A DNA stretch of 17,818 nt from a virus (Duplodnaviria > Heunggongvirae > Uroviricota > Caudoviricetes), in IMG/VR virus record IMGVR_UViG_2713896903_000004; one strand, given 5' to 3'. This document shows positions 479-17,674 of this stretch, in pieces. The notes under the pieces were generated by a model that saw only the letters and a list, made by a program, of their open reading frames with translations, was not told where the DNA came from and did not search any database. The position numbers and the translations under genes were made by a program. How positions within the stretch are numbered: the stretch's first letter is position 1; the number at the start of each line of letters is the position of its first letter.

Positions 479-805
479 TTACTCCTTCGAGCTACCAAAT
501 TTGTTGCCGATTACTCTCATTGCAGCACCACGAATAGCATCGACGCCGATCAGCCCAACGCCGCCACCAATGGCAACAGAAAGTGATTTAGGCCATCCGA
601 CATACTCAAGCGCGGATGCAAAGGTCAGCGTCAGAGCGCCACAGAGCAAAATCTCGAGCGTTTTTCTCTTCCAGCCACCACCACCGCCAAAATAGGCAAT
701 GCGCAAGCCAGCCATAACGATCGACATAATCACTGCGCCCAGCGGTGTGTCTCCACGCCACCAGCTCTGGACCAACTCCAGCCAAGTATTTGGGTTATGA
801 GGCAT
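479..805 (-). CDS. Holin (class I-like; three hydrophobic segments, charged C-terminus)
   Basis: 108-aa ORF immediately upstream of the endolysin. Hydrophobic stretches LGAVIMSIVMAGLRIAYF, TLEILLCGALTLTFASALEYV and LSVAIGGGVGLIGVDAI, with a basic tail. Not lambda-S-like in sequence; the call rests on position and topology. Confidence 0.7.
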   Translation of the reverse strand: MPHNPNTWLELVQSWWRGDTPLGAVIMSIVMAGLRIAYFGGGGGWKRKTLEILLCGALTLTFASALEYVGWPKSLSVAIGGGVGLIGVDAIRGAAMRVIGNKFGSSKE

Positions 806-940: not shown

Positions 941-980
941 CAGGCCCAGAAACGACAAAACCCGCTCGACGGCGGGTTTA
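941..980 (-). terminator. Rho-independent terminator for minus-strand transcripts (tR'-like, upstream of holin)
   Basis: 8-bp stem aaacccgc / gcgggttt (958-965 and 972-979) with loop tcgacg. On the minus strand it is followed by the U-rich run uuuugucguuu. Confidence 0.6.
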
Positions 981-1024
981 AGCTGTGTGGCGAAGTAACC
1001 ACTCTTAACACAATACAATACTTT

Positions 1025-1053
1025 TTGCGTACGCGTTAGTGTTTTGATAGAAT
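1025..1053 (+). promoter_or_regulatory. Candidate sigma70 promoter for the AT-rich operon (TTGCGT-17-TAGAAT)
   Basis: -35-like TTGCGT at 1025-1030 and -10-like TAGAAT at 1048-1053 with a 17-nt spacer, about 45 nt upstream of the ATG at 1097. SD-like GGGGA at 1086-1090. Motif match only. Confidence 0.3.
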
Positions 1054-1096
1054 TTTCAGCCACATAAAAATCCATTCTTATAATTGGGGATATATA

Positions 1097-2272
1097 ATGG
1101 ATATAACTTGTTTAGAATGTGGCAATGTTCTTGACGACCCAACTGTAGCTTGCGATAAATGCGGTGCCACGCCTCATGTTGTAGTGCTGGGCAAACAATC
1201 GTACTTTCCTATTGGTGCTGTAACAGCAAATCTTGAAAAAAATGATTCAAGAGCATTTGATTATCGATTAGGTGAAGTTTGGGATCTAAAAAATGAAGTC
1301 ACATCTGAATTCATAACCAGAATTGAGAAAAAATTTAGCCGAAAAAACAAATTTCATAACTTCCTAGACTCAGATCACAACCCTTCATCCATTCCTACGA
1401 TCCTAAAAAAATACATTAATAAAAATAATGAATTCATTGATTTATCTAGAGCTATAATAGAGAGGCTTAAACATAATGCTAATAACGAATCGAGAGTTGC
1501 CCAACTTCAGGGGGGGAGCGTTGTTTTCATCCACTATAAGTCTACCGAACCAGAGGATTTGGGGAAACTTCTAATCGTAATGGTTGATAAACAAAGCGCC
1601 TATGACTTTGATTCGGATAAGTTGACCCCAACAAGATTAAATCCAATTAATACCGATGCCTTACGGCAGGCTGCGATGTTCGATTTAACTTTATTCGAAG
1701 CCAGTTATCCAGAAAACAAGGGTGACTCATATGTACATTTCTTGCAAGGTAAATCTAAAAGCGATTTTTTCAAAGACTCATTAGGTTGCCGACATGATTC
1801 GGACAATAAAAGAAGCATTCAGCAATTATTCAGTGCTATAGATATTTTTGCTAGTAAAAACTCACTCGGTCGTGTACTGCGTGATACTATTGACAATGAA
1901 GTTAAATCCTTACTGGAAAAAAAATCAAAAGATAAACACGGAAATAAGTCCGTTAAGATAGAGGATATTTCAAAAATAATTGACTCATGCCTGACTGATT
2001 CACACAAATGTAAGGGAACGTTTGTCGATTTTGTTAATCTTAATGGTTTCCAGATTGACCCTCAATTTGAACCAACTCCTAAAGCAGCTGAAAGCGCGCT
2101 TACAATTGAAGTGGCAGATAACGACAATAATTTTAAGTTGAAAATAATGCGTGGAGCTATTGGAGACGAAAAGTCAAATAAGCCTGTAATTCTCACTGAC
2201 AACAAATGCGAAATTGTGATAAAATTGAGTCAGGCAAATTATGATGAACTCAAAAGATATAGAGACAGCTAA
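1097..2272 (+). CDS. Hypothetical protein with N-terminal C4 zinc ribbon; possible NdpA/YejK-like (nucleoid-associated) central region
   Basis: 391-aa ORF in an AT-rich block. CxxC...CxxC at residues 5, 8, 19, 22 (CLECGNVLDDPTVACDKCG). The central segment (GGSVVFIHYKS..., YVHFLQGKSKSDFF) resembles my recollection of the YejK/NdpA family but is unverified. Stop TAA is 2 nt before the next ATG. Confidence 0.8.
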   Translation: MDITCLECGNVLDDPTVACDKCGATPHVVVLGKQSYFPIGAVTANLEKNDSRAFDYRLGEVWDLKNEVTSEFITRIEKKFSRKNKFHNFLDSDHNPSSIPTILKKYINKNNEFIDLSRAIIERLKHNANNESRVAQLQGGSVVFIHYKSTEPEDLGKLLIVMVDKQSAYDFDSDKLTPTRLNPINTDALRQAAMFDLTLFEASYPENKGDSYVHFLQGKSKSDFFKDSLGCRHDSDNKRSIQQLFSAIDIFASKNSLGRVLRDTIDNEVKSLLEKKSKDKHGNKSVKIEDISKIIDSCLTDSHKCKGTFVDFVNLNGFQIDPQFEPTPKAAESALTIEVADNDNNFKLKIMRGAIGDEKSNKPVILTDNKCEIVIKLSQANYDELKRYRDS

Positions 2273-2274
2273 TA

Positions 2275-3489
2275 ATGACAATTGCTGATGACTTATCAAG
2301 ATTAGCGCAGATTATTAACGGAGCCTCAAGCAGAGTTGAGGGCTACTACACTGTCATAAGTCTTGAAGAAAGCATTGTTATTGTAAATAGTTCTGAAATA
2401 ATTAGACTGTTACAATCTATAGGTTATAAAAAGGCAACAACCTGCATCGAAAATAATGAAATTTGGCTAGATCGCCAAGCTTCATCTTGGGATGACGCTA
2501 TAATTTATGAGAATGTTGAGTCTTTTTGGTCTAGAGTAAACACCCAAAACGCTCTTCCGAAAAATTATATCATCGGAACGCCGTTAATACTCCCTACTTC
2601 TAAGAATGAAAGCATCGAAAAAATCCATATTTTCTTTATGTGGAAAGATATCCTTTCATTAATTGCTGATCATCATAACAGTGACTGCTCTGTCTTATTT
2701 TTCACCAATGAAGACAAAAGTTATACAGTCGAACTCACGCATTTTTTACAATATAGCGAGATTAATCGCTTATCGAACTCGTCTCTTAAATATGAAATTA
2801 TAAAGGAGCTTCTCGACACAATAAAAATCAATGATTTACACAAAAGCGAGCGCAAGCTCGTTATACGCTCAGCCATAAACGAAGTATTTAAAGCAAATGG
2901 TACGTTCAATTTCTTTGACTTGCTTAACTCTACTGAACTCGTCAGGAAAAAATATGATGAACTATATGAGATTTACACAAAGAGGTTTTCTGTAAATAAA
3001 ATTCTTAACGAACTCGATGAGAAAAATCTTGAGTTCACGAGTAAAATTAACGAATTCATATCATCTAATCAGACAAAAGCATTGACTATTCCCGGTGCAT
3101 TAATAGCAGCTGGTGGCTTAGTGAAGGCTAATGAAACAACCGAAGCAATATTGATTATCGCAGGACTTTGGATGATAAAAAAAGTCAATTACATTTCTAT
3201 TGAGATATTCAATGAAACATTCGACAACTTACGTTCTCGAGTGGAGTCCGCTTTCGATAAGTATTTAAAGTTTGAAGAAAATAAAGAAATCAAAGATAAT
3301 GCAGATAGTATTAAGAGTAGCATTACAGGTTTGATTGATAAAGCTAAAAAAAGGATGAGAACTGTTAAATATCTCGCATCAGCCATGTTTTATGGAGGCC
3401 TTATTTACGTTGGATATAAGCAGTTCCCAGTCTTTTTTGAAAAATCGGCAGTAAATCTATTTTATTTTTTATGCCATACTATAAGCTAA
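2275..3489 (+). CDS. Hypothetical protein with C-terminal hydrophobic (possibly membrane-inserting) segments
   Basis: 404-aa ORF translationally coupled to the upstream gene. Hydrophobic stretches LTIPGALIAAGGLV, AILIIAGLWMI and LASAMFYGGLIYVGY in the last third. No recognisable catalytic motif. Its last 21 nt overlap the 3' end of Q on the other strand. Confidence 0.8.
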   Translation: MTIADDLSRLAQIINGASSRVEGYYTVISLEESIVIVNSSEIIRLLQSIGYKKATTCIENNEIWLDRQASSWDDAIIYENVESFWSRVNTQNALPKNYIIGTPLILPTSKNESIEKIHIFFMWKDILSLIADHHNSDCSVLFFTNEDKSYTVELTHFLQYSEINRLSNSSLKYEIIKELLDTIKINDLHKSERKLVIRSAINEVFKANGTFNFFDLLNSTELVRKKYDELYEIYTKRFSVNKILNELDEKNLEFTSKINEFISSNQTKALTIPGALIAAGGLVKANETTEAILIIAGLWMIKKVNYISIEIFNETFDNLRSRVESAFDKYLKFEENKEIKDNADSIKSSITGLIDKAKKRMRTVKYLASAMFYGGLIYVGYKQFPVFFEKSAVNLFYFLCHTIS

Positions 3490-3825
3490 CATTGCTAAAC
3501 AGCCGTCAACAAACCCCATTGCAGTTTGCAGTTCCTTCCTAATTGTGCCATCAGAGCATTTTCTCTTCTTCGCAATAGTGCGTAATGAGATACCGATAAC
3601 AAAGTGGGCGATGATGAGCTCATATTCCTCTGGTTTATACCTTCTCAACCGAGCCACACAACTGTCTATCATGATGCCTTCATCATCATCGCACTGGAGA
3701 CGTGACTTTTTACCGTGTGGTAGAAGCCCCTTGAAACCAGCCGCTATCGGCTGCCAGTCGACACCACTATTTTCTGCTGCAGCCCAAGCCCCCCAACGAT
3801 CTAAAACTTCGTACATATCACGCAT
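3469..3825 (-). CDS. Late-gene antiterminator Q (small QuuD-type Q family)
   Basis: 118-aa ORF MRDMYEVLDRWGAWAA...IAAGFKGL...CSDGTIRKELQ matches my memory of the DLP12 QuuD-type Q family. GGAGG about 10 nt upstream of the ATG. Positioned between replication genes and the lysis cassette. Confidence 0.75.
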   Translation of the reverse strand: MRDMYEVLDRWGAWAAAENSGVDWQPIAAGFKGLLPHGKKSRLQCDDDEGIMIDSCVARLRRYKPEEYELIIAHFVIGISLRTIAKKRKCSDGTIRKELQTAMGFVDGCLAMLAYSMA

Positions 3826-8870: not shown

Positions 8871-9130
8871 TGTTGGTCTCCTGTGGGCTTGTCATCTTCT
8901 GTGTGCGCTAAGCTTGGATGTGGAAAAAGCTCTGGTAGGTCTGGACGAAATTCATACGCTTGGATCTTTCCGTCGACAGCTGCAACCAATAACGGCACAA
9001 ATTCTGGTGAAATCTTGTTCTTGCAGTTCAACCAATCGCAGACTGTTGACTGGGCCTTTCCGCATCGCTTGGCTAAGGCTTGCTGACTTCCAAGAATCTC
9101 AATAGCTTTCTCTATGGCTTTATGTTTCAT
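8867..9130 (-). CDS. Cro/YdaS-like HTH regulator
   Basis: 87-aa product from the ATG at 9130 (SD GGAG 9 nt upstream). HTH-like LGSQQALAKRCGKAQSTVCDWLN. Divergent from the repressor gene across a ~120-bp operator region. The track's longer 104-aa version has no RBS. Confidence 0.65.
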   Translation of the reverse strand: MKHKAIEKAIEILGSQQALAKRCGKAQSTVCDWLNCKNKISPEFVPLLVAAVDGKIQAYEFRPDLPELFPHPSLAHTEDDKPTGDQQ

Positions 9131-9152
9131 AATCGCATCTCCTATTGAACGC

Positions 9153-9181
9153 ATAATAACAACAGGAAAAGCGATATTCAA
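9153..9181 (-). promoter_or_regulatory. PR-like early-right promoter (TTGAAT-17-TATTAT) driving the cro-like gene
   Basis: On the minus strand, -35 TTGAAT (9181..9176) and -10 TATTAT (9158..9153) with a 17-nt spacer, ~20 nt upstream of the cro-like SD. Confidence 0.5.
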
Positions 9182-9197
9182 CGTTAAACCTAGAATA

Positions 9198-9217
9198 TTT
9201 ATCGGAAAGCCGATAAA
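9198..9217. promoter_or_regulatory. Operator-like perfect palindrome TTTATCGG-N4-CCGATAAA between the cro-like and cI-like genes
   Basis: 8-bp inverted arms with a 4-bp spacer, just downstream of a TAGAAT -10-like element (9191-9196) oriented toward cI. Related CGATAAACCGAT / ATCGGTAAACC motifs recur at the PL-like promoter. Confidence 0.5.
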
Positions 9218-9249
9218 CTAGCCAAGATAGAGAGGGGAGGAAAATCGCA

Positions 9250-9942
9250 ATGACATTTTCAGAACGACTTGATTTAGCTATGCGCAACGCAAAATTTACG
9301 CAAGGTAGGCTGGCCAAAGAAGTGGGTATGGCTCAGTCCAGTGTTAATCAACTACTTAACAAAGCCAACGGTTCCAGAAAAACAGTCGAAATAGCAAAAG
9401 TTTTGGGCGTTAACCCGGAATGGCTCGCATCGGGTGTTGGTCCAATGGAAATCGTGACCTCTGCAGACTCACACCAAATACGTAACATTTCTGAAGATTG
9501 GGTTACTGATTCGTATGTCGTGGATGTTTTAGACATCAGATATAGTTGCGGACCTGGTAGTTATAACTCTGATTTTCCTGACATTGTCAGATCTATAGCG
9601 ATAGAACCAGGATACGCATCAAGAGTTTTTGGCGGCAGACCAGCATCAGCAATCAAAGCAATAAACGCCCACGGCGACAGTATGAAAGGCACAATAGACC
9701 CTGAAGACTTGGTATTTGTAGATGTATCAGTTCGCACATTTAATGGTGATGGTATATACGCCTTTACATACTCTGGAACATCGCACATCAAAAGACTTCA
9801 AAAAATCAAAGATACTCTAACGGTGATATCTGACAACCCAGCTTACAAGGATTGGGCTATCGAACCGGAAGACTTCGAACAACTTCACATTGACGGAAAA
9901 GTAATTGTCAGTTGGCCTATGACACTACACCGTTTTGCATAA
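9250..9942 (+). CDS. CI-like prophage repressor (N-terminal HTH, C-terminal LexA/S24 autopeptidase domain)
   Basis: 230-aa ORF with GGAGG upstream. HTH-like QGRLAKEVGMAQSSVNQLLN. C-terminal S24-like motifs GDSM (Ser) and a downstream KRL (Lys). Confidence 0.85.
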   Translation: MTFSERLDLAMRNAKFTQGRLAKEVGMAQSSVNQLLNKANGSRKTVEIAKVLGVNPEWLASGVGPMEIVTSADSHQIRNISEDWVTDSYVVDVLDIRYSCGPGSYNSDFPDIVRSIAIEPGYASRVFGGRPASAIKAINAHGDSMKGTIDPEDLVFVDVSVRTFNGDGIYAFTYSGTSHIKRLQKIKDTLTVISDNPAYKDWAIEPEDFEQLHIDGKVIVSWPMTLHRFA

Positions 9943-9956
9943 GCAAAAATCATTTA

Positions 9957-9986
9957 ACCCGCCCACTCTTAAGTGGGCTTTTTTTT
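9957..9986 (+). terminator. Rho-independent terminator downstream of the repressor gene
   Basis: Stem gcccact / agtgggc (9961-9967 and 9972-9978) with loop ctta, followed by T8 (9979-9986). Confidence 0.7.
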
Positions 9987-9994
9987 GGAAAAAA

Positions 9995-10036
9995 ATCGAT
10001 AAACCGATTGACAGGTGAAATCGGTAAACCTATTAT
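9995..10036 (+). promoter_or_regulatory. PL-like early-left promoter (TTGACA-17-TATTAT) with overlapping operator-like repeats
   Basis: Consensus -35 TTGACA at 10008-10013, a 17-nt spacer and -10 TATTAT at 10031-10036. ATCGATAAACCGAT overlaps the -35 and ATCGGTAAACC lies in the spacer. Confidence 0.55.
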
Positions 10037-10085
10037 CTTGACATAGGTATCGAACTCACCAAAGCAATTATAGAGGATGAGAAAA

Positions 10086-10583
10086 ATGTCATCGTATATG
10101 GGATTACCAACAAATCAGCACGATGCTCTTGAGAATATTCAGCTCTTAGTAGGGGCTGGTGCACTACTGTATAGCAGCAATAACCCTGAGTTAATTGAAC
10201 TTGCCAGCTCCATCCTGGCTGTAACTCAAAAATATAGCCTCACCGCGTCACGTTTATGCAAACAAAATTTAGCTATTAATTCCCAGAATCGGATTCGCAC
10301 CCAACGCGAAGCCTGCGGCTTAACAACCGCCGAACTCGCCAGGCTGCTCGAACTCGATGAAGAAATCATCATCCAGTGGGAGAGTGGAGAGTATGAACCA
10401 ACCATCAGTATGCTTATCCCACTGGCTAATGTTCTTGGCTGCGATCCGATGTGGCTGTTAACTGGCGAGGTTACTCCTCCGGAGCAACCAAAAAGTGAGG
10501 AGCAGCAACACCATGACGCATCTCAACAAGTTTGCTCCTTATCTCGCGAAGCTCTTCTACGGAAGAACCAATACCAATGGTGA
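10086..10583 (+). CDS. XRE-family HTH protein (first gene of the early-left operon)
   Basis: 165 aa from the ATG at 10086 (SD GAGGA 8 nt upstream); the track's start at 10077 abuts the SD. HTH-like segment CGLTTAELARLLELDEEIIIQWESGEYEPTISMLIPLANVLGCDPMWLLTG. Confidence 0.6.
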   Translation: MSSYMGLPTNQHDALENIQLLVGAGALLYSSNNPELIELASSILAVTQKYSLTASRLCKQNLAINSQNRIRTQREACGLTTAELARLLELDEEIIIQWESGEYEPTISMLIPLANVLGCDPMWLLTGEVTPPEQPKSEEQQHHDASQQVCSLSREALLRKNQYQW

Positions 10584-10711
10584 CATAATCGCCGCTTCGC
10601 CCCTCAAGGTACATGCGAACATTTTTATCAATCATTGCGGAAACAGTCTCAATATGAAAACACTTCTGAGACTCGCTATATAGCAGAACATATAAGTCAG
10701 CTGAGGAAGCC

Positions 10712-11077
10712 ATGAAAAAGTTCGAAAACATAACTGTTCTCCATGTTGATGACTTTGATTATACAAACCCGAAACTTCTCCCGAAGGTTGTAAAGGCAAT
10801 AGATGTTGCCGATATAGTGATTAGAGGAAAGAGAATTGTCAAAAACAGGCTCGCATGCACTTCAGGAGCAATGACAGAAACAACCTCACAACAAGATGAT
10901 TATGAAGGCATTTGTCTGGAGCCTGATTCATTTGCGGTAAATGTTTATCATTTATTGCATGCAACACAGGTATTACATATGTCAAGTAATCACGAAACAA
11001 AAACACTTGGCAGCGAAATTCTGAATTTTGCATGTGAATATGCAAAAGCTGCTGCCGAAAAAGAATTAGCGCAATAA
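10712..11077 (+). CDS. Hypothetical protein (121 aa)
   Basis: ORF with SD GAGGA 4 nt upstream of the ATG. Moderately AT-rich. No recognisable domain. Confidence 0.6.
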   Translation: MKKFENITVLHVDDFDYTNPKLLPKVVKAIDVADIVIRGKRIVKNRLACTSGAMTETTSQQDDYEGICLEPDSFAVNVYHLLHATQVLHMSSNHETKTLGSEILNFACEYAKAAAEKELAQ

Positions 11078-11155
11078 CAATAAATATTCCCTGAATGTTT
11101 ATTACGGTTTTATCGCCGGAGATTGTTGCAACCTTTATTCGCAGGAGATTATGTT

Positions 11156-11269
11156 ATGACTTTCCTGAAACATAAGGCATCGTATAAAACTGCCTGCCTC
11201 ATTGCACAACATGGAGATTCTTATCTTCATATAGCCAACCTGTATTTGCGCAAAGCATATGGGAGATAA
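11156..11269 (+). CDS. Small hypothetical protein (37 aa)
   Basis: Below the ORF-track size cut-off. ATG preceded by AGGAG at an 8-nt spacing. Ends 4 nt before the next start. Confidence 0.25.
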   Translation: MTFLKHKASYKTACLIAQHGDSYLHIANLYLRKAYGR

Positions 11270-11273
11270 GTCA

Positions 11274-11462
11274 ATGGAAGAAAAACAACAAAACATAACA
11301 CATAAAAAAGTAAGAGTGTTGCTAACCATTGAAAATGGTGAAGTAATTTACTCAAAACATCTGTTGGATAGTGAATTCGTTGGCTGCATGGATACATTTC
11401 TGTGGATGGCAAAAAGAGCTGGCTACACGATTATTCCACCAGCAAAGGAGCAAACATTATGA
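11274..11462 (+). CDS. Hypothetical small protein (62 aa)
   Basis: ATG at 11274 with SD GGGAG 8 nt upstream. Its stop overlaps the start of the next gene (ATGA). Confidence 0.45.
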   Translation: MEEKQQNITHKKVRVLLTIENGEVIYSKHLLDSEFVGCMDTFLWMAKRAGYTIIPPAKEQTL

Positions 11463-12040
11463 ATCATTCAGAGTTCCGACCAGAAGTTACTCCACATGGC
11501 ATAAAAATTGGCAATACAACCATTGATTATGTTGAAGCTGTGCGGCGTCTTAATGATGGTGAATACGATTATCCAAATTCACGCGGTTTAAGAATCCTTC
11601 AGTGCCTTGCCGAAGCTGATGATGCCGGATTGCTGGGGAAATTTTCCATCGATATGAAGGTTGCACAATGGCGCTGGCTGTATGTAACGATATTTATAAA
11701 CGAAGAGGAATATAAGAACGGCACCATTGATATCTCGAACGAAAACGGAACTACAGGTCGCGCAGTTATTTATAAAGGGAAATATGGTTGTATGGGTATC
11801 TACCCGGGACCAATTCGCATTGCCCTGCAAAACCATGTCGAATGGGGATTTATTGAAAAATATGGTGAAGATGAAGGTATGGGGCGAGTTCTGTTTCTCT
11901 ATCAAAAAATGCTCATCGCAGATCCTGATAATGGTTTCATTGTTTCTGCTATGGGACGCGAAGGGCTTGAACTCCTTCTGGATGAAATGATTAACGACCT
12001 GAATACTCATGGTATGCCAGAAGCGCCAGTGACACATTAA
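11459..12040 (+). CDS. Hypothetical protein (193 aa)
   Basis: ATG at 11459 with SD AAGGAG 8 nt upstream, translationally coupled to the preceding small ORF. No recognisable domain. Confidence 0.65.
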   Translation: MNHSEFRPEVTPHGIKIGNTTIDYVEAVRRLNDGEYDYPNSRGLRILQCLAEADDAGLLGKFSIDMKVAQWRWLYVTIFINEEEYKNGTIDISNENGTTGRAVIYKGKYGCMGIYPGPIRIALQNHVEWGFIEKYGEDEGMGRVLFLYQKMLIADPDNGFIVSAMGREGLELLLDEMINDLNTHGMPEAPVTH

Positions 12041-12086
12041 ATATTAAGAAGAAAATAATTCTTCCAGTTTTTTACTAACCGTTTAT

Positions 12087-12194
12087 ATGAAAAGCAACCG
12101 TGAATTAAACAGAGTAAAACTGATTTTAATCCTTGCCACAGTGGTGACACTAACTGAAATTATTATTCTCTTTATTGCGCTGTCAGTCGGTTAA
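12087..12194 (+). CDS. Possible small hydrophobic peptide (35 aa)
   Basis: MKSNRELNRVKLILILATVVTLTEIIILFIALSVG forms a single predicted TM helix. No clear SD, so speculative. Confidence 0.2.
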   Translation: MKSNRELNRVKLILILATVVTLTEIIILFIALSVG

Positions 12195-12217
12195 AAATAT
12201 CGGGATACCACAGACCA

Positions 12218-12406
12218 ATGAGACTGTATTTCACAATAGTAATTTTACTGGCAATTATCGCATGCATTTACGGATTACTCGTTCCGTTCCTTATATCCAT
12301 GAAGGATACGATAGCAGTTATTTCTGGCTTTGCACTGGCGTTTCTGACCCCGCCCTGCATTTATGCCATTTACAAGGGTCTTTCTTTCACTAAGGATAAA
12401 AGATGA
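12218..12406 (+). CDS. Small membrane protein (62 aa, two hydrophobic helices)
   Basis: Hydrophobic stretches FTIVILLAIIACIYGLLVPFLI and VISGFALAFLTPPCIYAIY. Its stop overlaps the SPFH gene start (ATGA). Confidence 0.5.
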   Translation: MRLYFTIVILLAIIACIYGLLVPFLISMKDTIAVISGFALAFLTPPCIYAIYKGLSFTKDKR

Positions 12407-13230
12407 AAAAAATTATTTTTGCTTTAGCCATTGTTCTGCCGACTATTGGCCTCGTCGGTTGCGATCGCGTTGAACCAGGTAATGTTGGCATCAAGGTAAA
12501 TAAACTGGGCGACGACAAAGGCGTCGGTGAGGTGGTCGGTGTTGGTCGCTACTGGACAGGCTGGAACACTGAAGTTTATATCTTCCCGACCTTTAAGCAG
12601 ATGAAGACCTACGATGATCCATTCAGTTTCCAGATGAGCGATGGAACAACCATTGGTTACCACATCGGAGTAGCCTACAAGGTTGATCCATCCAAAGTTA
12701 CCACGGTGTTTCAAACCTACCGCAAAGGTGTGGATGACATTACCGACACCGACCTGCGCCAGAAGATAGCAGATGCACTAAATCGGCTGGCCAGCAAAAT
12801 GACCACCGACAAATTTATCGACGGCGGCAAGTCTGAGCTGCTGGATGCAGCTCTAAAAGATATTCAGGCAGAAATGACGCCCATCGGTATTCAGGTAATG
12901 AGCCTGTCTTATGTAGGTAAACCGGAGTACCCGCCAACCGTTATCGACAGCATTAACGCCAAAGTCACGGCAAACCAGAAAACCCTGCAACGCGAGCAGG
13001 AAGTAAAACAGCGCGAAGCGGAAGCCAACATGTTGCGTGCGGAGGCTGCCGGACAGGCAGATGCAATTCGCACAAAAGCTCAGGCCGAAGCCGATGCTAT
13101 TCGTTTACGCGGTGAAGCTCTGCGCCAGAACCCCGGTGTTATGGAGCTGGAAGCCATCAATAAATGGAACGGCACACTGCCGCAATACATGACCAGCGGT
13201 GCCAATACACCATTTATCCAGGTTAAATAA
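12403..13230 (+). CDS. SPFH/band-7 (prohibitin/HflC-like) domain lipoprotein
   Basis: Signal peptide with lipobox LVGC (MKKIIFALAIVLPTIGLVGC). SPFH-like core and an Ala/Glu/Arg/Gln-rich coiled-coil tail (QREAEANMLRAEAAGQADAIRTKAQAEADAIRLRGEALRQ). SD AAGGA upstream. Confidence 0.75.
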   Translation: MKKIIFALAIVLPTIGLVGCDRVEPGNVGIKVNKLGDDKGVGEVVGVGRYWTGWNTEVYIFPTFKQMKTYDDPFSFQMSDGTTIGYHIGVAYKVDPSKVTTVFQTYRKGVDDITDTDLRQKIADALNRLASKMTTDKFIDGGKSELLDAALKDIQAEMTPIGIQVMSLSYVGKPEYPPTVIDSINAKVTANQKTLQREQEVKQREAEANMLRAEAAGQADAIRTKAQAEADAIRLRGEALRQNPGVMELEAINKWNGTLPQYMTSGANTPFIQVK

Positions 13231-13237
13231 CTTATAT

Positions 13238-13256
13238 GCCCGGCAGGCCGCCGGGC
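13238..13256 (+). other. GC-rich hairpin after the SPFH gene (no U tract; weak terminator or RNA-stability element)
   Basis: Stem gcccggc / gccgggc with loop aggcc, followed by taagggaaaag. Confidence 0.3.
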
Positions 13257-13270
13257 TAAGGGAAAAGCAG

Positions 13271-13630
13271 ATGAACACCCATAATGCCCAACCGCAAATA
13301 ATGAACTATGACCCGAATCTGACGTCATGCGGACGCATGGCAAAACAAACCGTTCGATTAACTTTCGGGTTATGGGAATACCGCGAAACATTCGAAGTCA
13401 CTGTCGGTGGCAACCTGACCGGACTCGATGTTATCAGTTGCGCTATTGAAAGCCTGTACGCAACGCTGCCTTATGAAGAAGTCGAGGATGAGCGCGATAT
13501 CATCGCCACCATTAATATCGGCGGCGTGAAATGCAAGGATGAAAACTTGATCGGAGAACTCTGGCTTGCCGGGATGCTTATCTCTGCAGAAATTATCAGT
13601 ATTGAACCCGCTACAAACATACCGCTCTGA
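13271..13630 (+). CDS. Hypothetical protein (119 aa)
   Basis: ATG at 13271, in frame with the longer track ORF 13199-13630. AAGGG-like SD upstream. Confidence 0.55.
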   Translation: MNTHNAQPQIMNYDPNLTSCGRMAKQTVRLTFGLWEYRETFEVTVGGNLTGLDVISCAIESLYATLPYEEVEDERDIIATINIGGVKCKDENLIGELWLAGMLISAEIISIEPATNIPL

Positions 13631-14353: not shown

Positions 14354-15667
14354 ATGGATAAAGTCAAATATCCAACAGGCGTCGAAAACCACGGCGGCAC
14401 ATTACGCATCTGGTTTAATTTTAAAGGTAAACGTGTCAGGGAAAATCTTGGTGTCCCTGACACTGCCAAGAACAGGAAGATCGCCGGGGAACTACGGACA
14501 TCGGTATGTTTTGCCATCCGCACAGGAAGCTTTGATTATGCTGCACAGTTCCCTGACTCCCCTAACCTTCAGGCTTTTGGGGTAAGTAAAAAAGAAATTA
14601 CGGTGAAAGAACTTGAAGAAAAATGGCTGGATCTGAAACGAATGGAAATCTCTGCAAATGCATTCAATCGCTATGAATCCGTTGCAAGAACGATGGTTCC
14701 GAAAATTGGAGGCAGCAGACTGGTGTCATCGGTAACTAAAGAGGAATTGCTGTATATCAGGAAAGATTTGCTGACCGGGTATCAGAATTCAACGAAAAAC
14801 AAAGCAGCAGCAAAAGGACGGAGCGTCGTTACTGTAAATTATTACATGACGACAATCGCTGGAATGTTTCAGTTTGCTGCAGATCACGGTTACTTAGAAG
14901 CAAATCCCTTCCAGGGAATTAAGCCTCTTAAAAGAGCCAGGGCAGAGCCAGATCCGCTAACTCGTGACGAATTTATTCGCCTGATAGATGCTTGCCGACA
15001 TCAGCAGACGAAAAACCTGTGGTCATTGGCTGTGTACACAGGAATGCGTCACGGTGAACTGGTCTCCCTGGCCTGGGAAGATATCGATCTGAAAGCAGGA
15101 ACTATTACTATCAGGCGCAATTATACGAAACTCGGTGAGTTCACTCTACCTAAAACTGAAGCAAGTACAAACAGGGTTGTGCATCTTATCCAGCCCGCTA
15201 TCAGTGTCCTGAAAAATCAGGCTGAAATGACAAGACTGGGTAAGCAGCACCACATCAAGGTTCAACTACGTGAATATGGGCGTTCAGTGAATCATGAATG
15301 TACTTTCGTATTTAACCCCCAGGTGGTTAGAAAAAGCAAACAGGTCGGTTTTATCTACAAGGTAGATTCTATTGGCGACTCATGGGAAACAGCCATTAAG
15401 CGTGCGGGCATCAGGCACCGGAAAGCATACCAGTCACGACACACTTATGCGTGCTGGTCGTTATCTGCCGGAGCAAATCCAAGCTTCATTGCCAGCCAGA
15501 TGGGCCATGCAAGTGCCCAGATGGTGTTCAATGTATACGGAGCATGGATGACTGACAGTAATGCAGAACAGATCGCAATGCTGAATCAGAAGCTGGCAGA
15601 TTATGTCCCAATGATGCCCCATAGTCACCAAAATGGCACAAAAGGCTTATTAAAATCAGTAAGTTAA
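14354..15667 (+). CDS. int: Tyrosine integrase (lambda/Rac-type with N-terminal arm-binding domain)
   Basis: 437-aa ORF with SD GGAGG 5 nt upstream. Catalytic-domain motifs TGMRHGEL, SRHTYACW and the tyrosine region NVYGAWM. Adjacent to the host junction. Confidence 0.9.
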   Translation: MDKVKYPTGVENHGGTLRIWFNFKGKRVRENLGVPDTAKNRKIAGELRTSVCFAIRTGSFDYAAQFPDSPNLQAFGVSKKEITVKELEEKWLDLKRMEISANAFNRYESVARTMVPKIGGSRLVSSVTKEELLYIRKDLLTGYQNSTKNKAAAKGRSVVTVNYYMTTIAGMFQFAADHGYLEANPFQGIKPLKRARAEPDPLTRDEFIRLIDACRHQQTKNLWSLAVYTGMRHGELVSLAWEDIDLKAGTITIRRNYTKLGEFTLPKTEASTNRVVHLIQPAISVLKNQAEMTRLGKQHHIKVQLREYGRSVNHECTFVFNPQVVRKSKQVGFIYKVDSIGDSWETAIKRAGIRHRKAYQSRHTYACWSLSAGANPSFIASQMGHASAQMVFNVYGAWMTDSNAEQIAMLNQKLADYVPMMPHSHQNGTKGLLKSVS

Positions 15668-15675
15668 TCCTTAAT

Positions 15676-16095
15676 ACCCGTCATGTTAACTGCGTAGAGG
15701 GCAACACTACTCTGTATGCACTGCCGAAAGCGGAAGTTGTGCTGCGCTGGCGTGAGCAAACCAGCGACGATTTCCGTTTTTGTTTTAAGTTCCCGGCAAC
15801 TATTTCGCATCAGGCTGCATTACGTCATTGCGACGATTTAGTGACAGAGTTTTTCACCCGTATGTCGCCGCTGGCACCACGCATTGGGCAATTCTGGCTG
15901 CAATTACCCGCTACCTTCGGTCCACGGGATCTGCCTGCGCTTTGGCATTTTCTCGATACTCTACCTGGCGAGTTTACCTACGGTGTGGAAGTTCGCCATC
16001 CGCTATTTTTTGCCAAAGGGGAAGAAGAACAAACGCTTAATCGCGGCTTGCATCAACGTGGCGTTAATAGGGTAATACTAATCAGACACGTTTAA
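15676..16095 (+). pseudogene. yecE: Start-less internal fragment of a host DUF72-family gene (yecE-like), bounded by two integrated elements
   Basis: The reading frame is open from directly after the int stop, with no ATG or RBS. The product (…NCVEGNTTLYALPKAEVVLRWREQTSDDFRFCFKFPATISH…) resembles my recollection of E. coli YecE. A stop follows shortly after the sequence changes character near 16075. Confidence 0.5.
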
Positions 16096-16150
16096 ATACA
16101 CCATCCAAAGCGATACAATCACACTATTAGTTTTTTATGGTGTATAAACT

Positions 16151-17674
16151 ATGAAACGTGCAATCAGTTACATCCGATTCAGTTCTGAGAAGCAATCCCG
16201 AGGTGATTCACTACGCCGACAATCGAAGTTGGTCACTGACTGGCTTAAAGCTCGTCCTGAGTATCATCTAGATGAATCTCTTACCTTCCGTGATTTGGGG
16301 AAAAGTGCTTTTAGCGGTAAGCACTTGAAAGGTGGCTTAGGCGACTTCTTAACCGCTATTGAGAAAGGGCTTGTAAGAGCTGGTGATACGCTCTTGATAG
16401 AGTCTCTTGACCGTCTGTCACGGCAAGATGTAGACCGAGCAAGTGAACTACTCAGAAACATCCTTCGCTCTGGTGTCGATGTGGTCACATTATCCGATAA
16501 TGAACACTACACAAAGGAATCTCTTAAAGACCCGTTAGCCTTGATTAAGTCAATCCTGATTATGCAACGAGCGCATGAGGAAAGTTTGAGGAAGTCTGAG
16601 CGTATACAGGCTGCATGGGATGCAAAGAAAGAAGCCGCTAAAGCTGGTATCAAGATTTCTAAGCGTTGCCCTGCATGGCTTAAGCTTAATAATGACCGTA
16701 AAAGTTTCTCTGTAATCCCTGAGAAGGTAGCGACGGTAAAGCGATGCTTCCAGCTACGGTTAGAGGGTAAGTCTATCTTGGAAATTGTCAGAACTCTTAA
16801 TAGTGAGGGACATCAGACGCTTAACCAGTACAAAGCGGGTAAATTTAGTCAGACTTCTGTGCAAGACCTTTTGAAGAATCGCTCTGTAATTGGTTATTTC
16901 ACCCCCAAAGGCTGTGAAGAAATTTCAAACTATTACCCCTCTATCATCCCTGAGACTGATTTCTACAAAGTCCAGCAACTATCATATCCTCGTTACGGTA
17001 GAAAACCTGCTTCAGATAAACCATTGAGTGTGAATCTTTTCAAGGGTGTTATCCGTTGTTCTGAATGTGGTCATGCTCTGATTATCACAGGCTTTAGCGA
17101 TACAAGGAACGGGATATATCGCTGCCCTCTTCGTAATGAAAACCGTTGCAGTGCTAAGGGTCTGTCACGTAAGCAAACTGATGGAACATTACTTGCTTTG
17201 CTCTCTCGTCTTGACCGATTTGAGAATGGTACAACGAATGCCATTGATACACTGAAGCTACACCGTGAACACATTTCAAACAATATTGAGAAGCTGGTAC
17301 AACTCTCACTTGAAGTCGAAGACCTGACCGCTATTACCAGCAAGTTAAAACAGTTAAAGGGGGAGTTATCACAGGTTGATGCTGATATTGAGAAGGAGGC
17401 ACAACGCCTTAAATCTATTGACGTGGGTTGTTTGTCTGATTGTGACTTGAGTACAAAGGCGGGAAGGATTGAAGCACAACTGATTATTCGTAGTGCTGTT
17501 AAAGAAGTTGTTTTAAACACTGCTAAACGTCGCTGTAGAGTAACTTTTCACAATGGCAAGGTGATTGACCTGTCGATAACAGAAAACCCCGCTCAGGACA
17601 TTACAGAGGCTGAAAAGTCGCTTACTGAAATTGCTGAGAAGGGTCTGTTAGATGTTGACGCCTTCCAACTGTAG
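16151..17674 (+). CDS. Large serine recombinase (resolvase-type catalytic domain, recombinase domain, zinc ribbon, coiled coil)
   Basis: 507-aa ORF. N-terminal ISYIRFSSEKQ...SLRRQ with the catalytic Ser in RFSS. Cys cluster CSECGH...CPLRNENRC. C-terminal coiled-coil region. Confidence 0.85.
   Translation: MKRAISYIRFSSEKQSRGDSLRRQSKLVTDWLKARPEYHLDESLTFRDLGKSAFSGKHLKGGLGDFLTAIEKGLVRAGDTLLIESLDRLSRQDVDRASELLRNILRSGVDVVTLSDNEHYTKESLKDPLALIKSILIMQRAHEESLRKSERIQAAWDAKKEAAKAGIKISKRCPAWLKLNNDRKSFSVIPEKVATVKRCFQLRLEGKSILEIVRTLNSEGHQTLNQYKAGKFSQTSVQDLLKNRSVIGYFTPKGCEEISNYYPSIIPETDFYKVQQLSYPRYGRKPASDKPLSVNLFKGVIRCSECGHALIITGFSDTRNGIYRCPLRNENRCSAKGLSRKQTDGTLLALLSRLDRFENGTTNAIDTLKLHREHISNNIEKLVQLSLEVEDLTAITSKLKQLKGELSQVDADIEKEAQRLKSIDVGCLSDCDLSTKAGRIEAQLIIRSAVKEVVLNTAKRRCRVTFHNGKVIDLSITENPAQDITEAEKSLTEIAEKGLLDVDAFQL

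What the first reader, a model, noticed from the sequence alone, without database searches (positions are those of the whole stretch)
1097..2272. First cassette protein: C4 zinc ribbon fused to a possible NdpA/YejK-like DNA-binding region
Residues 5-22 form a classic CxxC-N10-CxxC zinc ribbon, visible directly. The central region carries motifs that I remember as characteristic of the 37-kDa nucleoid-associated protein family, which would make this a DNA-binding candidate sensor. The family assignment comes from memory and is unverified.
Basis: partly seen in the sequence, partly recalled or inferred. Interest (0 to 1): 0.7.

Follow-up and report, generated by a model that had tools for sequence, protein, structure and literature searches.

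The report
Known DS-1 anti-phage sensor protein

Summary
The ORF at 1097..2272 (+) is real, at 391 aa. Residues 5-22 form CxxC-N10-CxxC. The four Cys are invariant in all 26 ribbon-bearing homologues aligned, and only 103 of 200,000 shuffles give such a motif.

The NdpA/YejK assignment is correct. Pfam NA37 scores 85.6 bits against a cutoff of 24.6. The AlphaFold2 model matches only YejK (PDB 9be2, E=1.9e-14), with the same order of secondary-structure elements.

The protein is already known. It passes the NCBIfam equivalog "DS1_1 nucleoid-associated anti-phage protein" and differs by one residue (R123K) from DS-1A of DeWeirdt, Mahoney and Laub (Science 2026). Those authors already annotated ZF (3-43) plus YejK (42-382).

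The next ORF (2275..3489) is identical to DS-1B. The pair forms a 35%-GC cassette in a variable slot between antiterminator Q and the holin of a lambdoid prophage.

New here:
- In 19 of 19 related loci the A gene is directly followed by a B gene.
- The ribbon is an optional N-terminal add-on, present in 6 of those 19 loci.
- The architecture resembles type II PANGU.

Likely mechanism, inferred: a nucleoid-bound clamp is released on phage attack and activates the membrane effector DS-1B. Novelty: already known. Interest: low.

The parts
1097..2272 (+). DS-1A gene: 391-aa protein with a zinc ribbon and a YejK/NA37-like nucleoid-associated domain (anti-phage)
   Evidence: ORF. NCBIfam NF053868 DS1_1_antiphage scores 452.3 bits against a cutoff of 330. 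It differs from the published DS-1A, WP_000355468.1, only by R123K. The exact sequence is WP_059276177.1, named from Escherichia albertii.
1109..1162 (+). Codons 5-22: C4 zinc ribbon CLEC-N10-CDKC, within an acidic N-terminal extension (residues 1-36, net charge -3)
   Evidence: Seen directly in the sequence. Shuffle test gives 103 of 200,000. The four Cys are invariant in 26 of 26 ribbon-bearing homologues. The ribbon is absent from Pseudomonas-type and short clades. The DS-1 authors' HHpred annotated it as ZF 3-43.
1181..2254 (+). Codons 29-386: two-domain YejK/NA37 fold, with an N-domain to about residue 230 and a C-domain from about residue 237 carrying the C-terminal beta arm and last helix
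   Evidence: Pfam PF04245 covers residues 64-376 at 85.6 bits. PHROG 3767 'nucleoid associated protein' covers residues 36-390. AlphaFold2 elements follow the YejK topology. Foldseek matches 9be2 at E=1.9e-14.
2275..3489 (+). DS-1B gene: 404-aa partner and putative membrane effector. Its start codon lies 2 nt after the DS-1A stop.
   Evidence: NCBIfam NF053869 DS1_2_antiphage scores 375.2 bits against a cutoff of 315. It is identical to WP_000150292.1. It has no Pfam or PADLOC hit and matches PHROG 5023, function unknown. The AlphaFold2 model has pLDDT 85.9.
3079..3183 (+). DS-1B residues 269-303: conserved hydrophobic helical hairpin (ALTIPGALIAAGGLVK / ANETTEA / ILIIAGLWMIKK), the most conserved part of the family
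   Evidence: Invariant Q266, K268, A269, P273, G274 and A278. Mean Kyte-Doolittle hydropathy is 1.66 and 1.96, and the segment lengths are fixed in all 41 sequences. Helices 271-284 and 288-331 in the model.
3358..3426 (+). DS-1B residues 362-384: C-terminal hydrophobic helix, a putative membrane anchor
   Evidence: Hydrophobicity is moderate (family mean Kyte-Doolittle 0.94).
1050..3500 (.). Variable low-GC cargo cassette (about 35% GC against about 47% for the rest of the window) in the Q-holin slot of a lambdoid prophage
   Evidence: Composition. Similarity to related prophages stops at about 1041-1052 on the left and resumes at about 3499-3511 on the right. Those prophages carry other 2-3-gene cassettes on the same strand.
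1044..1071 (+). Candidate sigma-70 promoter of the cassette (TTGATA-16-AAAAAT)
   Evidence: Consensus scan only, 9 of 12 matches. The number of such sites in the region is not above the shuffled expectation. Weak evidence.
3469..3825 (-). Antiterminator Q gene, convergent with DS-1B and overlapping it by 21 nt (context)
   Evidence: Pfam Phage_antitermQ at E=2.1e-47.
479..805 (-). Lambda-family holin, the first lysis gene (context)
   Evidence: Pfam Phage_holin_3_1 at E=5.7e-25.

Best explanation
Identity (near certain). The ORF is DS-1A, the first gene of the published two-gene anti-phage system DS-1. It sits with DS-1B as a horizontally acquired cassette between antiterminator Q and the holin of a lambdoid prophage, antisense to the phage late operon, so the lysogen can express it as a moron.

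Mechanism (inferred by analogy with type II PANGU; not shown for DS-1).
- DS-1A dimerises into a YejK-type clamp that rides non-specifically on chromosomal DNA through a basic pore. Conserved K/R positions include K79, R82, K83, K85, K219 and K226.
- Phages that destroy or remodel the host nucleoid deprive DS-1A of long DNA.
- The freed clamp binds the acidic N-terminal domain of DS-1B (residues 1-165, net charge -9).
- DS-1B then uses its conserved hydrophobic hairpin (269-303) and C-terminal hydrophobic helix to damage the inner membrane and abort the infection.

The zinc ribbon. The N-terminal C4 ribbon is an optional, acidic add-on to the clamp. It is under strong constraint where present but missing from whole clades that keep the A-B pair. 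It most likely tunes regulation or partner or trigger recognition rather than providing the core DNA binding.
For: Identity.
- Both NCBIfam equivalogs score above their curated cutoffs.
- DS-1A has one substitution and DS-1B none against the tested proteins.
- RefSeq names the pair 'nucleoid-associated anti-phage protein' and 'anti-phage protein' in the same Q-holin slot.
- Published plaque data for D390/DS-1, as -log EOP: Bas1 7.6, Bas26 2.7, Bas3 1.7, T3 1.7, T5 1.0, T7 0.9.

Fold.
- Pfam NA37 hit.
- Only YejK matches among PDB structures.
- The element-by-element topology includes the beta6-beta7 hairpin and the C-terminal arm that make the YejK dimer.
- The YejK R173 position is kept as K219, in 98% of the family.

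Obligate pairing.
- A is directly followed by B on the same strand in 19 of 19 loci from diverse Gammaproteobacteria.
- The genes are 2 nt apart here and overlap in other loci.

Effector.
- No enzymatic domain is detectable.
- The N-domain is acidic, and the hydrophobic hairpin and C-terminal helix are conserved.

Mechanistic precedent. In PANGU systems, YejK-like proteins leave the nucleoid on infection and bind an acidic DNA-mimic domain of the effector. Type II pairs the NAP with a DMK-TM protein, both genes are needed, neither is toxic alone, and the phenotype is abortive.

Phage range. T5 and T1-type phages degrade host DNA according to the PANGU preprint. That T3 and T7 do so as well is my own knowledge.
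Against: - No experiment on DS-1 beyond plaque assays is published. The DS-1 paper did not probe it further.
- I could not obtain Pag2A or Pag2B sequences, so homology of DS-1 to type II PANGU is untested.
- The phage ranges differ. The two studied PANGU systems protect against T4 but not T1 or T5. DS-1 protects against a Bas1 phage (T1-like by my memory of the BASEL set) and T5-type phages, and no T4 effect is listed.
- The second YejK DNA-binding patch (R276/R280/K284) is not conserved; the aligned residues are P328 and E332.
- DS-1B's hydrophobic helices are short (16 and 12 residues) and only marginally pass a Kyte-Doolittle threshold.
- Structural similarity of DS-1B to pore-forming toxins is not significant (E>0.5).
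- The ribbon region is modelled with low-to-moderate confidence.
Confidence: 0.6

Rival explanations
1. Direct sensing. DS-1A recognises a phage molecule, such as incoming or replicating phage DNA, a DNA end or modification, or a phage protein. The zinc ribbon could be the recognition module. Recognition then switches on DS-1B without any need for host-genome degradation.
For: The DS-1 phage range (Bas1, Bas26, T3, T5, T7; no T4 listed) is almost the reverse of that of the studied PANGU systems (T4 yes; T1 and T5 no). This argues that the trigger is not simply 'any nucleoid degradation'. The ribbon is strongly constrained where present. Zinc ribbons commonly mediate protein or nucleic-acid contacts (general knowledge).
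Against: The ribbon is absent from many family members that keep the A-B pair, so it cannot be the universal sensor. It is acidic (net -3 to -9), which is atypical for a nucleic-acid-binding ribbon. YejK-type clamps bind DNA without sequence specificity.
Confidence: 0.2
2. Toxin-antitoxin-like pair. DS-1B is a constitutively toxic membrane protein held in check by DS-1A acting as antitoxin or transcriptional repressor. Phage shut-off of host expression depletes DS-1A and frees DS-1B.
For: The genes are tightly coupled in the order A then B (2 nt apart or overlapping). Many abortive systems are toxin-antitoxin based (discussion of DS-6).
Against: In the architecturally similar type II PANGU, neither gene alone is toxic and both are required for defence. 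DS-1A is a 44-kDa clamp-fold protein, not a small labile antitoxin. No HTH or RHH repressor domain is present.
Confidence: 0.08
3. Prophage housekeeping. DS-1A is a phage-encoded nucleoid protein that serves the prophage itself, for example by regulating or silencing the AT-rich cassette or late genes, or by aiding DNA compaction. This would resemble NdpA2 control of the PAPI-1 element. Phage resistance in the plasmid assays would then be a side effect.
For: NA37 genes occur on mobile elements with regulatory roles (PMC8565334, listed). They also occur in Pseudomonas F116-like phages. The PHROG family is labelled simply 'nucleoid associated protein'.
Against: The two genes alone, cloned away from the prophage, give up to 7.6 logs of protection. 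A is always paired with B (19 of 19 loci), including outside lambdoid prophages, for example next to a filamentous Pf-type prophage in P. aeruginosa. The slot holds interchangeable cargo cassettes.
Confidence: 0.05

Closest known systems
DS-1 (working name D390), DefensePredictor screen; DeWeirdt, Mahoney & Laub, Science 2026 (PMC13092281; bioRxiv January 2025); NCBIfam NF053868 and NF053869
   Same: It is the same system. A differs by one residue (R123K) and B is identical. Gene order and spacing are the same, and so is the prophage slot next to antiterminator Q. The authors give the same domain annotation, ZF 3-43 plus YejK 42-382.
   Different: The host background is different: the exact A allele is the RefSeq protein WP_059276177.1, named from Escherichia albertii, and the flanking prophage genes are only about 87-93% identical to E. 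coli relatives. The published work gives no mechanism for DS-1.
Type II PANGU (Pag2A NAP + Pag2B DMK-TM effector); Li et al., bioRxiv 2026, 10.64898/2026.04.06.716658
   Same: A bicistronic operon encodes a YejK-like NAP followed by a partner with an acidic N-terminal part and C-terminal hydrophobic or TM helices. It is found in E. coli and acts against phage. It works as a sensor plus effector rather than as a toxin-antitoxin pair.
   Different: Sequence homology could not be tested because no sequences are held. The preprint mentions no zinc ribbon. The reported phage ranges differ: PANGU covers T4 but not T1 or T5, whereas DS-1 covers Bas1, Bas26, T3, T5 and T7. The preprint does not cite DS-1.
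E. coli YejK / NdpA (Pfam NA37, PDB 9be2; Schumacher et al., NAR 2024)
   Same: The two-domain fold and element order are the same, as are the dimerisation hairpin and C-terminal arm. The KNK, GG..F.HY and DFF.D.LG motifs are shared, and there is a basic residue at the R173 position.
   Different: Identity is only about 19%. The protein fails the YejK equivalog cutoff (82 against 341 bits). It carries an extra N-terminal zinc ribbon. It lacks a 3-residue insert holding R176, and the R276/R280/K284 patch is not conserved. It is encoded on a prophage cassette and is obligatorily paired with DS-1B, whereas YejK is a stand-alone housekeeping NAP.
Type I PANGU (Pag1A NAP + Pag1B GRel toxSAS)
   Same: It uses a YejK-like clamp as the sensor. 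The clamp is released from degraded DNA and captured by an acidic DNA-mimic domain of the effector.
   Different: The effector is an alarmone-synthetase toxin, not a membrane protein. DS-1B has no detectable enzymatic domain.

Membership tests
DS-1 anti-phage system | First protein matches the NCBIfam equivalog NF053868 (DS1_1) above its curated cutoff | tested here: met
   452.3 bits against a cutoff of 330, E=1.2e-135, profile positions 3-369 of 369.
DS-1 anti-phage system | Second protein matches the NCBIfam equivalog NF053869 (DS1_2) above its curated cutoff | tested here: met
   375.2 bits against a cutoff of 315, E=2.8e-112. The protein is identical to WP_000150292.1.
DS-1 anti-phage system | The two genes are adjacent, on the same strand, with A upstream of B | tested here: met
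   The stop codon ends at 2272 and the next ATG is at 2275. The same arrangement is seen in 19 of 19 related loci.
DS-1 anti-phage system | Confers resistance to phage when expressed | not testable with these tools
   Published for the K123 allele plus an identical B: Bas1 7.6 logs, Bas26 2.7, T3 1.7. The R123 allele in this window has not been tested.
NA37 / YejK-NdpA nucleoid-associated protein family (PF04245) | Profile match above the Pfam gathering threshold | tested here: met
   85.6 bits against 24.6, E=5.5e-24, residues 64-376.
NA37 / YejK-NdpA nucleoid-associated protein family (PF04245) | Two-domain YejK fold with the published element order | tested here: met
   The AlphaFold2 model has pLDDT 85.8. 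Foldseek finds a unique significant hit to 9be2 at E=1.9e-14, with TM-scores of 0.43 and 0.49. The modest TM-scores and 17 A rmsd fit different arm or domain orientation in a monomer model. The topology matches.
NA37 / YejK-NdpA nucleoid-associated protein family (PF04245) | Basic pore residues needed for DNA binding (YejK R173/R176/K177 and R276/R280/K284) | tested here: inconclusive
   R173 aligns with K219 (98% K/R in the family). R176 lies in an insert that is absent here. K177 aligns with S220, next to K221. The second patch is not conserved.
NA37 / YejK-NdpA nucleoid-associated protein family (PF04245) | Forms a ring-shaped dimer and binds dsDNA non-specifically | not testable with these tools
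   The hairpin and C-terminal arm elements are present in the monomer model. No multimer prediction or assay was available.
YejK proper (orthologue of the E. coli housekeeping NAP, NCBIfam NF001557) | Equivalog score above the curated cutoff | tested here: not met
   82.1 bits against a cutoff of 341. The protein is a divergent paralogous subfamily, not YejK itself.
Type II PANGU | YejK-like NAP gene in an operon (gap under 40 bp) with a non-NAP effector gene | tested here: met
   2-nt gap. The operon definition is given.
Type II PANGU | Effector with an acidic N-terminal DNA-mimic (DMK) domain and a C-terminal TM domain | tested here: inconclusive
   The N-domain (1-165) has net charge -9 (family mean -6.7, range -17 to +1). 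Hydrophobic helices lie at 269-303 and 362-384 but are short or only moderately hydrophobic. Surface electrostatics were not computable.
Type II PANGU | Sequence homology to Pag2A and Pag2B | not testable with these tools
   No sequences or accessions are held for the preprint.
Type II PANGU | NAP relocates from the nucleoid on infection and binds the effector's DMK domain | not testable with these tools
   This needs experiment. The published phage ranges differ.
C4 zinc ribbon | Two CxxC knuckles on a beta-hairpin scaffold, with conserved Cys | tested here: met
   Motif at residues 5-22. The four Cys are invariant in 26 of 26 homologues. Short strands at residues 3-4 and 11-12 appear in the model. 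The DS-1 authors' HHpred gave NinF/Zn_Beta_Ribbon at 86% and HypA at 0.83. Pfam ribbon models fall below threshold.
C4 zinc ribbon | Binds zinc | not testable with these tools
   Needs metal analysis.

The most novel reading that the evidence does not exclude
The acidic N-terminal extension of DS-1A may be a regulatory module. It is a C4 zinc ribbon in enterobacterial and some marine members, and an unstructured acidic tail in Pseudomonas-type members. It could act as an intramolecular DNA mimic or gate on the clamp pore, or as a docking site for a phage factor. Either role would set which phages trigger the system. That would explain why DS-1 covers T1-like, T5-like and T3/T7 phages, whereas the studied PANGU systems cover T4 only. 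DS-1 would then be a mechanistically distinct branch of NAP-based immunity rather than just another type II PANGU.
Probability: 0.15. Interest if true: 0.45.

Novelty: already known. Interest (0 to 1): 0.2.

Why it matters
As a discovery it matters little. The protein, its domain architecture and its anti-phage role are published (Science 2026) and already built into RefSeq annotation through NCBIfam models.

The useful residue is threefold.
[quoted passage not shown] The PANGU preprint does not mention DefensePredictor; whether the DS-1 paper cites PANGU was not checked.
- It shows that the A-B pair is invariant across Gammaproteobacteria while the zinc ribbon is optional. This turns the role of the ribbon into a clean, testable question.
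- It documents the Q-holin slot of these lambdoid prophages as an exchangeable cargo site, probably for defence genes.

Tried and rejected
- PADLOC-DB 2.0 (2023) gave no hit for either protein. This reflects the date of the database and is not evidence against a defence role.
- tblastn against 50,697 isolated phage genomes found no close DS-1A homologue. It found only matches of about 20% identity to NA37 genes of Pseudomonas F116-like phages. The system is therefore seen in prophages but not in sequenced virions of that set.
- Foldseek of the DS-1B model against the PDB gave nothing significant. The top hits were alpha-pore-forming toxins (AhlB, MakA, SmhB) and CorA at E>0.5, so I do not claim a pore-forming-toxin fold.
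- Pfam zinc-ribbon models are below threshold, so the ribbon cannot be assigned to a named ribbon family.
- I tried to establish whether PANGU-Ecu is DS-1, but no sequences or supplements are held.
I repeated it with permitted rows.
- The promoter scan around the cassette is not enriched over shuffles (12 against 9.7 +/- 3.1), so promoter assignment is weak.
- Other window ORFs (10077-13630) gave no defence-family hits beyond generic HTH matches.
- I considered that the ORF might start downstream and exclude the ribbon. I rejected this because the next Met is far inside the NA37 domain, RefSeq annotates 391 aa, and the ribbon is conserved in homologues.
Full report
**Observation**

The window has an ATG-to-TAA ORF at 1097..2272 on the + strand, encoding 391 aa. 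A GGGGA motif lies 7 nt upstream of the ATG. Residues 5-22 read CLEC-(10)-CDKC. The other four cysteines (231, 298, 305, 371) are scattered.

Only 103 of 200,000 shuffles of the protein contain any CxxC-N(4-25)-CxxC. In 26 ribbon-bearing homologues, 36-96% identical to the window protein, the four Cys and the N10 spacing are invariant while the intervening residues vary.

Stand-alone Pfam ribbon models score only E=0.07-0.28, and AlphaFold2 confidence in residues 1-30 is 56-64. The ribbon is therefore a well-supported sequence feature. Metal binding has not been shown.

**Family assignment**

- Pfam NA37 (PF04245) matches residues 64-376 at E=5.5e-24 and 85.6 bits, against a gathering score of 24.6.
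- PHROG 3767, 'nucleoid associated protein', matches residues 36-390.
- The only PDB sequence relative is E. coli YejK, 9be2. The E-value is 4e-10 with the single sequence and 8e-19 with a 56-sequence family profile.
- An AlphaFold2 model built on that alignment has pLDDT 85.8 and pTM 0.81. Its single significant Foldseek hit in the PDB is 9be2 (E=1.9e-14, probability 1.00).
- The TM-scores of 0.43 and 0.49 and the 17 A rmsd fit a monomer model whose long arms and domains sit differently from the crystal dimer.

The modelled element order is the published YejK topology: b1-b2-a1-b3-a2-a3-b4-b5-b6-b7-b8-a-b9-a4, then a5-a9, b11-b14 and a10. It includes the b6-b7 hairpin and the C-terminal arm that build the YejK ring dimer.

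The protein is not YejK itself. It scores 82 bits against the YejK equivalog cutoff of 341 and is about 19% identical.

Of the YejK residues shown by mutagenesis to bind DNA, R173 aligns with K219, which is K/R in 98% of the family. R176 lies in a three-residue insert that is absent here. K177 aligns next to K221. The R276/R280/K284 patch is not conserved.

**It is already known**

NCBIfam has an equivalog model 'DS1_1_antiphage, nucleoid-associated anti-phage protein' (NF053868). The ORF scores 452 bits against a cutoff of 330. The next ORF (2275..3489, 404 aa) scores 375 bits against 315 for 'DS1_2_antiphage'.

DS-1 is system D390 of the DefensePredictor study (DeWeirdt, Mahoney & Laub; bioRxiv January 2025, Science 2026). 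Its proteins are WP_000355468.1 and WP_000150292.1. The window's A protein differs from the tested one only by R123K, and the B protein is identical.

The authors' own domain table lists ZF at 3-43 (HHpred HypA, 0.83) and YejK at 42-382 (probability 1.0). A separate table lists a NinF/Zn-beta-ribbon hit at 3-26. The paper counts 'a YejK nucleoid-associated domain' among domains newly validated in defence.

Their plaque data for D390, as -log EOP, are: Bas1 7.6, Bas26 2.7, Bas3 1.7, T3 1.7, T5 1.0 and T7 0.9. No T4 entry is listed. They did not study DS-1 further.

PADLOC 2023 has no model for either protein. The exact A sequence is the RefSeq protein WP_059276177.1, named from Escherichia albertii.

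**Genomic setting**

The window is the early half of a lambdoid prophage. It contains:
- a holin at 479-805 (-);
- antiterminator Q at 3469-3825 (-);
- DnaB, a DnaC-like loader and a replication initiator;
- Rha/Ash regulators, a Cro-like gene and a CI-like repressor;
- an integrase at 14354-15667 (+).

The DS-1 pair lies between Q and the holin on the opposite strand. It converges on Q, with a 21-nt overlap.

The pair is 35% GC, against about 47% for the rest of the window. The same 2.5-kb segment is at least 99% identical in 107 E. coli records, and some match is found in 148 of 5,426 complete genomes. It lies next to a Q gene in all listed cases, and in the one example inspected it sits in the same Q-holin slot.

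In related prophages, similarity to the window stops at about 1041-1052 and resumes at about 3499-3511. Between those points they carry different 2-3-gene cassettes on the same strand. 'Cassette' is therefore the right word, and the slot is an exchangeable cargo site.

**What I can add about the family**

A search of 5.8 billion proteins found 111 clusters of DS-1A relatives, down to 32% identity, and 69 clusters of DS-1B relatives.

In every locus I could inspect, the A gene is immediately followed by a B homologue on the same strand. That is 19 of 19 loci: 16 from one-genome-per-species contigs and 3 from assemblies. The hosts include Pseudomonas, Stutzerimonas, Oceanimonas, Marinomonas, Pseudoalteromonas, Thalassotalea, Aliidiomarina, Marinospirillum, Vogesella and Pseudescherichia. 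One P. aeruginosa locus abuts a filamentous-phage module with Zot.

The ribbon is optional.
- All full-length enterobacterial members have it, as do a few marine and metagenomic ones (6 of the 19 loci).
- Pseudomonas-type members replace it with an unstructured acidic tail.
- A 362-aa clade has almost no N-terminal extension.
- On a neighbour-joining tree of the core domain, the ribbon occurs in the enterobacterial clade and in a separate pair that groups with ribbon-less sequences (no support values).
- The extension is acidic in both forms, with mean net charge -4.5 with the ribbon and -3.3 without. That is unusual for a nucleic-acid-binding ribbon.

**The partner, DS-1B**

DS-1B has no Pfam, PADLOC or significant PDB-fold match. 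Its model has pLDDT 85.9 and shows:
- an alpha/beta N-domain at residues 1-165, with net charge -9 (family mean -6.7);
- a helical region at 169-268;
- a strictly length-conserved hydrophobic hairpin at 269-303, preceded by the most conserved motif of the family (FSVNK..E.DEK......SKIN..ISS.QTKA..IPGA.IA);
- a coiled-coil-like stretch at 304-361;
- a C-terminal hydrophobic helix at 362-384.

**Mechanism**

A 2026 preprint on PANGU systems reports the following.
- YejK-like NAPs in two-gene operons are chromosome-bound.
- They are released when phage nucleases degrade the genome, and they then bind an acidic DNA-mimic ('DMK') domain of the effector.
- In type II PANGU the effector has an N-terminal DMK domain and a C-terminal TM domain. 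Both genes are required, neither is toxic alone, and the phenotype is abortive.

DS-1 has this architecture. My best explanation is therefore that DS-1A is a nucleoid-riding clamp that acts as sensor, and that once released it activates the membrane effector DS-1B.

The following are shown:
- the identity of the system;
- the fold;
- the invariant A-B pairing;
- defence by the near-identical published pair.

The following are inferred:
- DNA binding by DS-1A;
- its release from the nucleoid;
- binding of DS-1A to DS-1B;
- membrane damage.

There are cautions. Homology to Pag2A and Pag2B could not be tested because no sequences are held. The phage ranges are nearly complementary: the studied PANGU systems protect against T4 but not T1 or T5, while DS-1 acts on Bas1, Bas26, T5, T3 and T7. 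From my memory of the BASEL collection, Bas1 is T1-like and Bas26 is T5-like. A different trigger, or a modulating role for the ribbon, therefore remains possible. I give that rival about 0.2.

**Verdict**

However, the finding rediscovers a published, named and database-annotated defence protein, including its ZF + YejK architecture. Novelty is 'already known' and interest is low, at 0.2.

The only open, modestly interesting points are the function of the optional acidic zinc ribbon and whether DS-1 is a type II PANGU or a distinct NAP-sensor branch.

Noticed in passing
window 1050-3500, compared with L007 2338-4445, L008 2923-4460 and L009 2718-4445: The slot between antiterminator Q and the holin is an exchangeable cargo site. 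Related E. coli prophages keep the flanks at 87-93% identity. In place of DS-1 they carry different 2-3-gene cassettes on the same strand, antisense to the late genes. These are mostly hypothetical proteins, one with a TIGR04255-family protein. They are candidates for further uncharacterised defence systems.
   Followed up: partly
window 957-1049 (hairpin 958-979 on the - strand): A roughly 90-bp block holds a GC-rich hairpin followed by a T-run on the late-gene strand. It is conserved (88-93%) directly beside the cassette in L007 and L008, even where extra genes (a DNA methyltransferase) separate it from the holin. It may be the late promoter/terminator (pR'/tR'-like) module or a recombination flank for cassette exchange.
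   Followed up: partly
window 3469-3499: The right-hand similarity break falls inside the 3' end of the Q gene. DS-1B overlaps Q convergently by 21 nt. The last ten or so codons of Q therefore travel with the cassette and differ between prophages carrying different cargo.
   Followed up: no
L002/L003 5001-7422 (Pseudomonas aeruginosa): A ribbon-less DS-1A/DS-1B pair sits next to a filamentous (Pf-like) prophage module with Zot and DUF2523. The pair is therefore carried by very different mobile elements.
   Followed up: no
L025 3992-5529 (Halioglobus MAG): This looks like a degenerate DS-1 locus. The A gene (with ribbon) matches only profile positions 6-191, and the B gene starts at profile position 106, directly abutting it. 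This suggests an internal deletion spanning the A-B junction.
   Followed up: no
window 12403-13630: A prophage-encoded SPFH/Band-7 protein (275 aa) is followed by an overlapping DUF5406 protein, just upstream of the integrase. There were no defence-database hits. The function in the prophage is unknown.
   Followed up: partly
window 15739-17674: Beyond the integrase lie a truncated DUF72 gene fragment, likely the disrupted attachment-site host gene, and a large serine recombinase (507 aa; resolvase + recombinase + zinc ribbon). The recombinase suggests a second mobile element abutting the prophage.
   Followed up: no
window 9001-12500: A second lower-GC stretch (38-46%) in the immunity region holds the CI-like repressor, a 168-aa HTH protein (a weak DicA/RmrA-like HTH match only) and two ORFs (121 and 212 aa) with no family hit.
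   Followed up: partly
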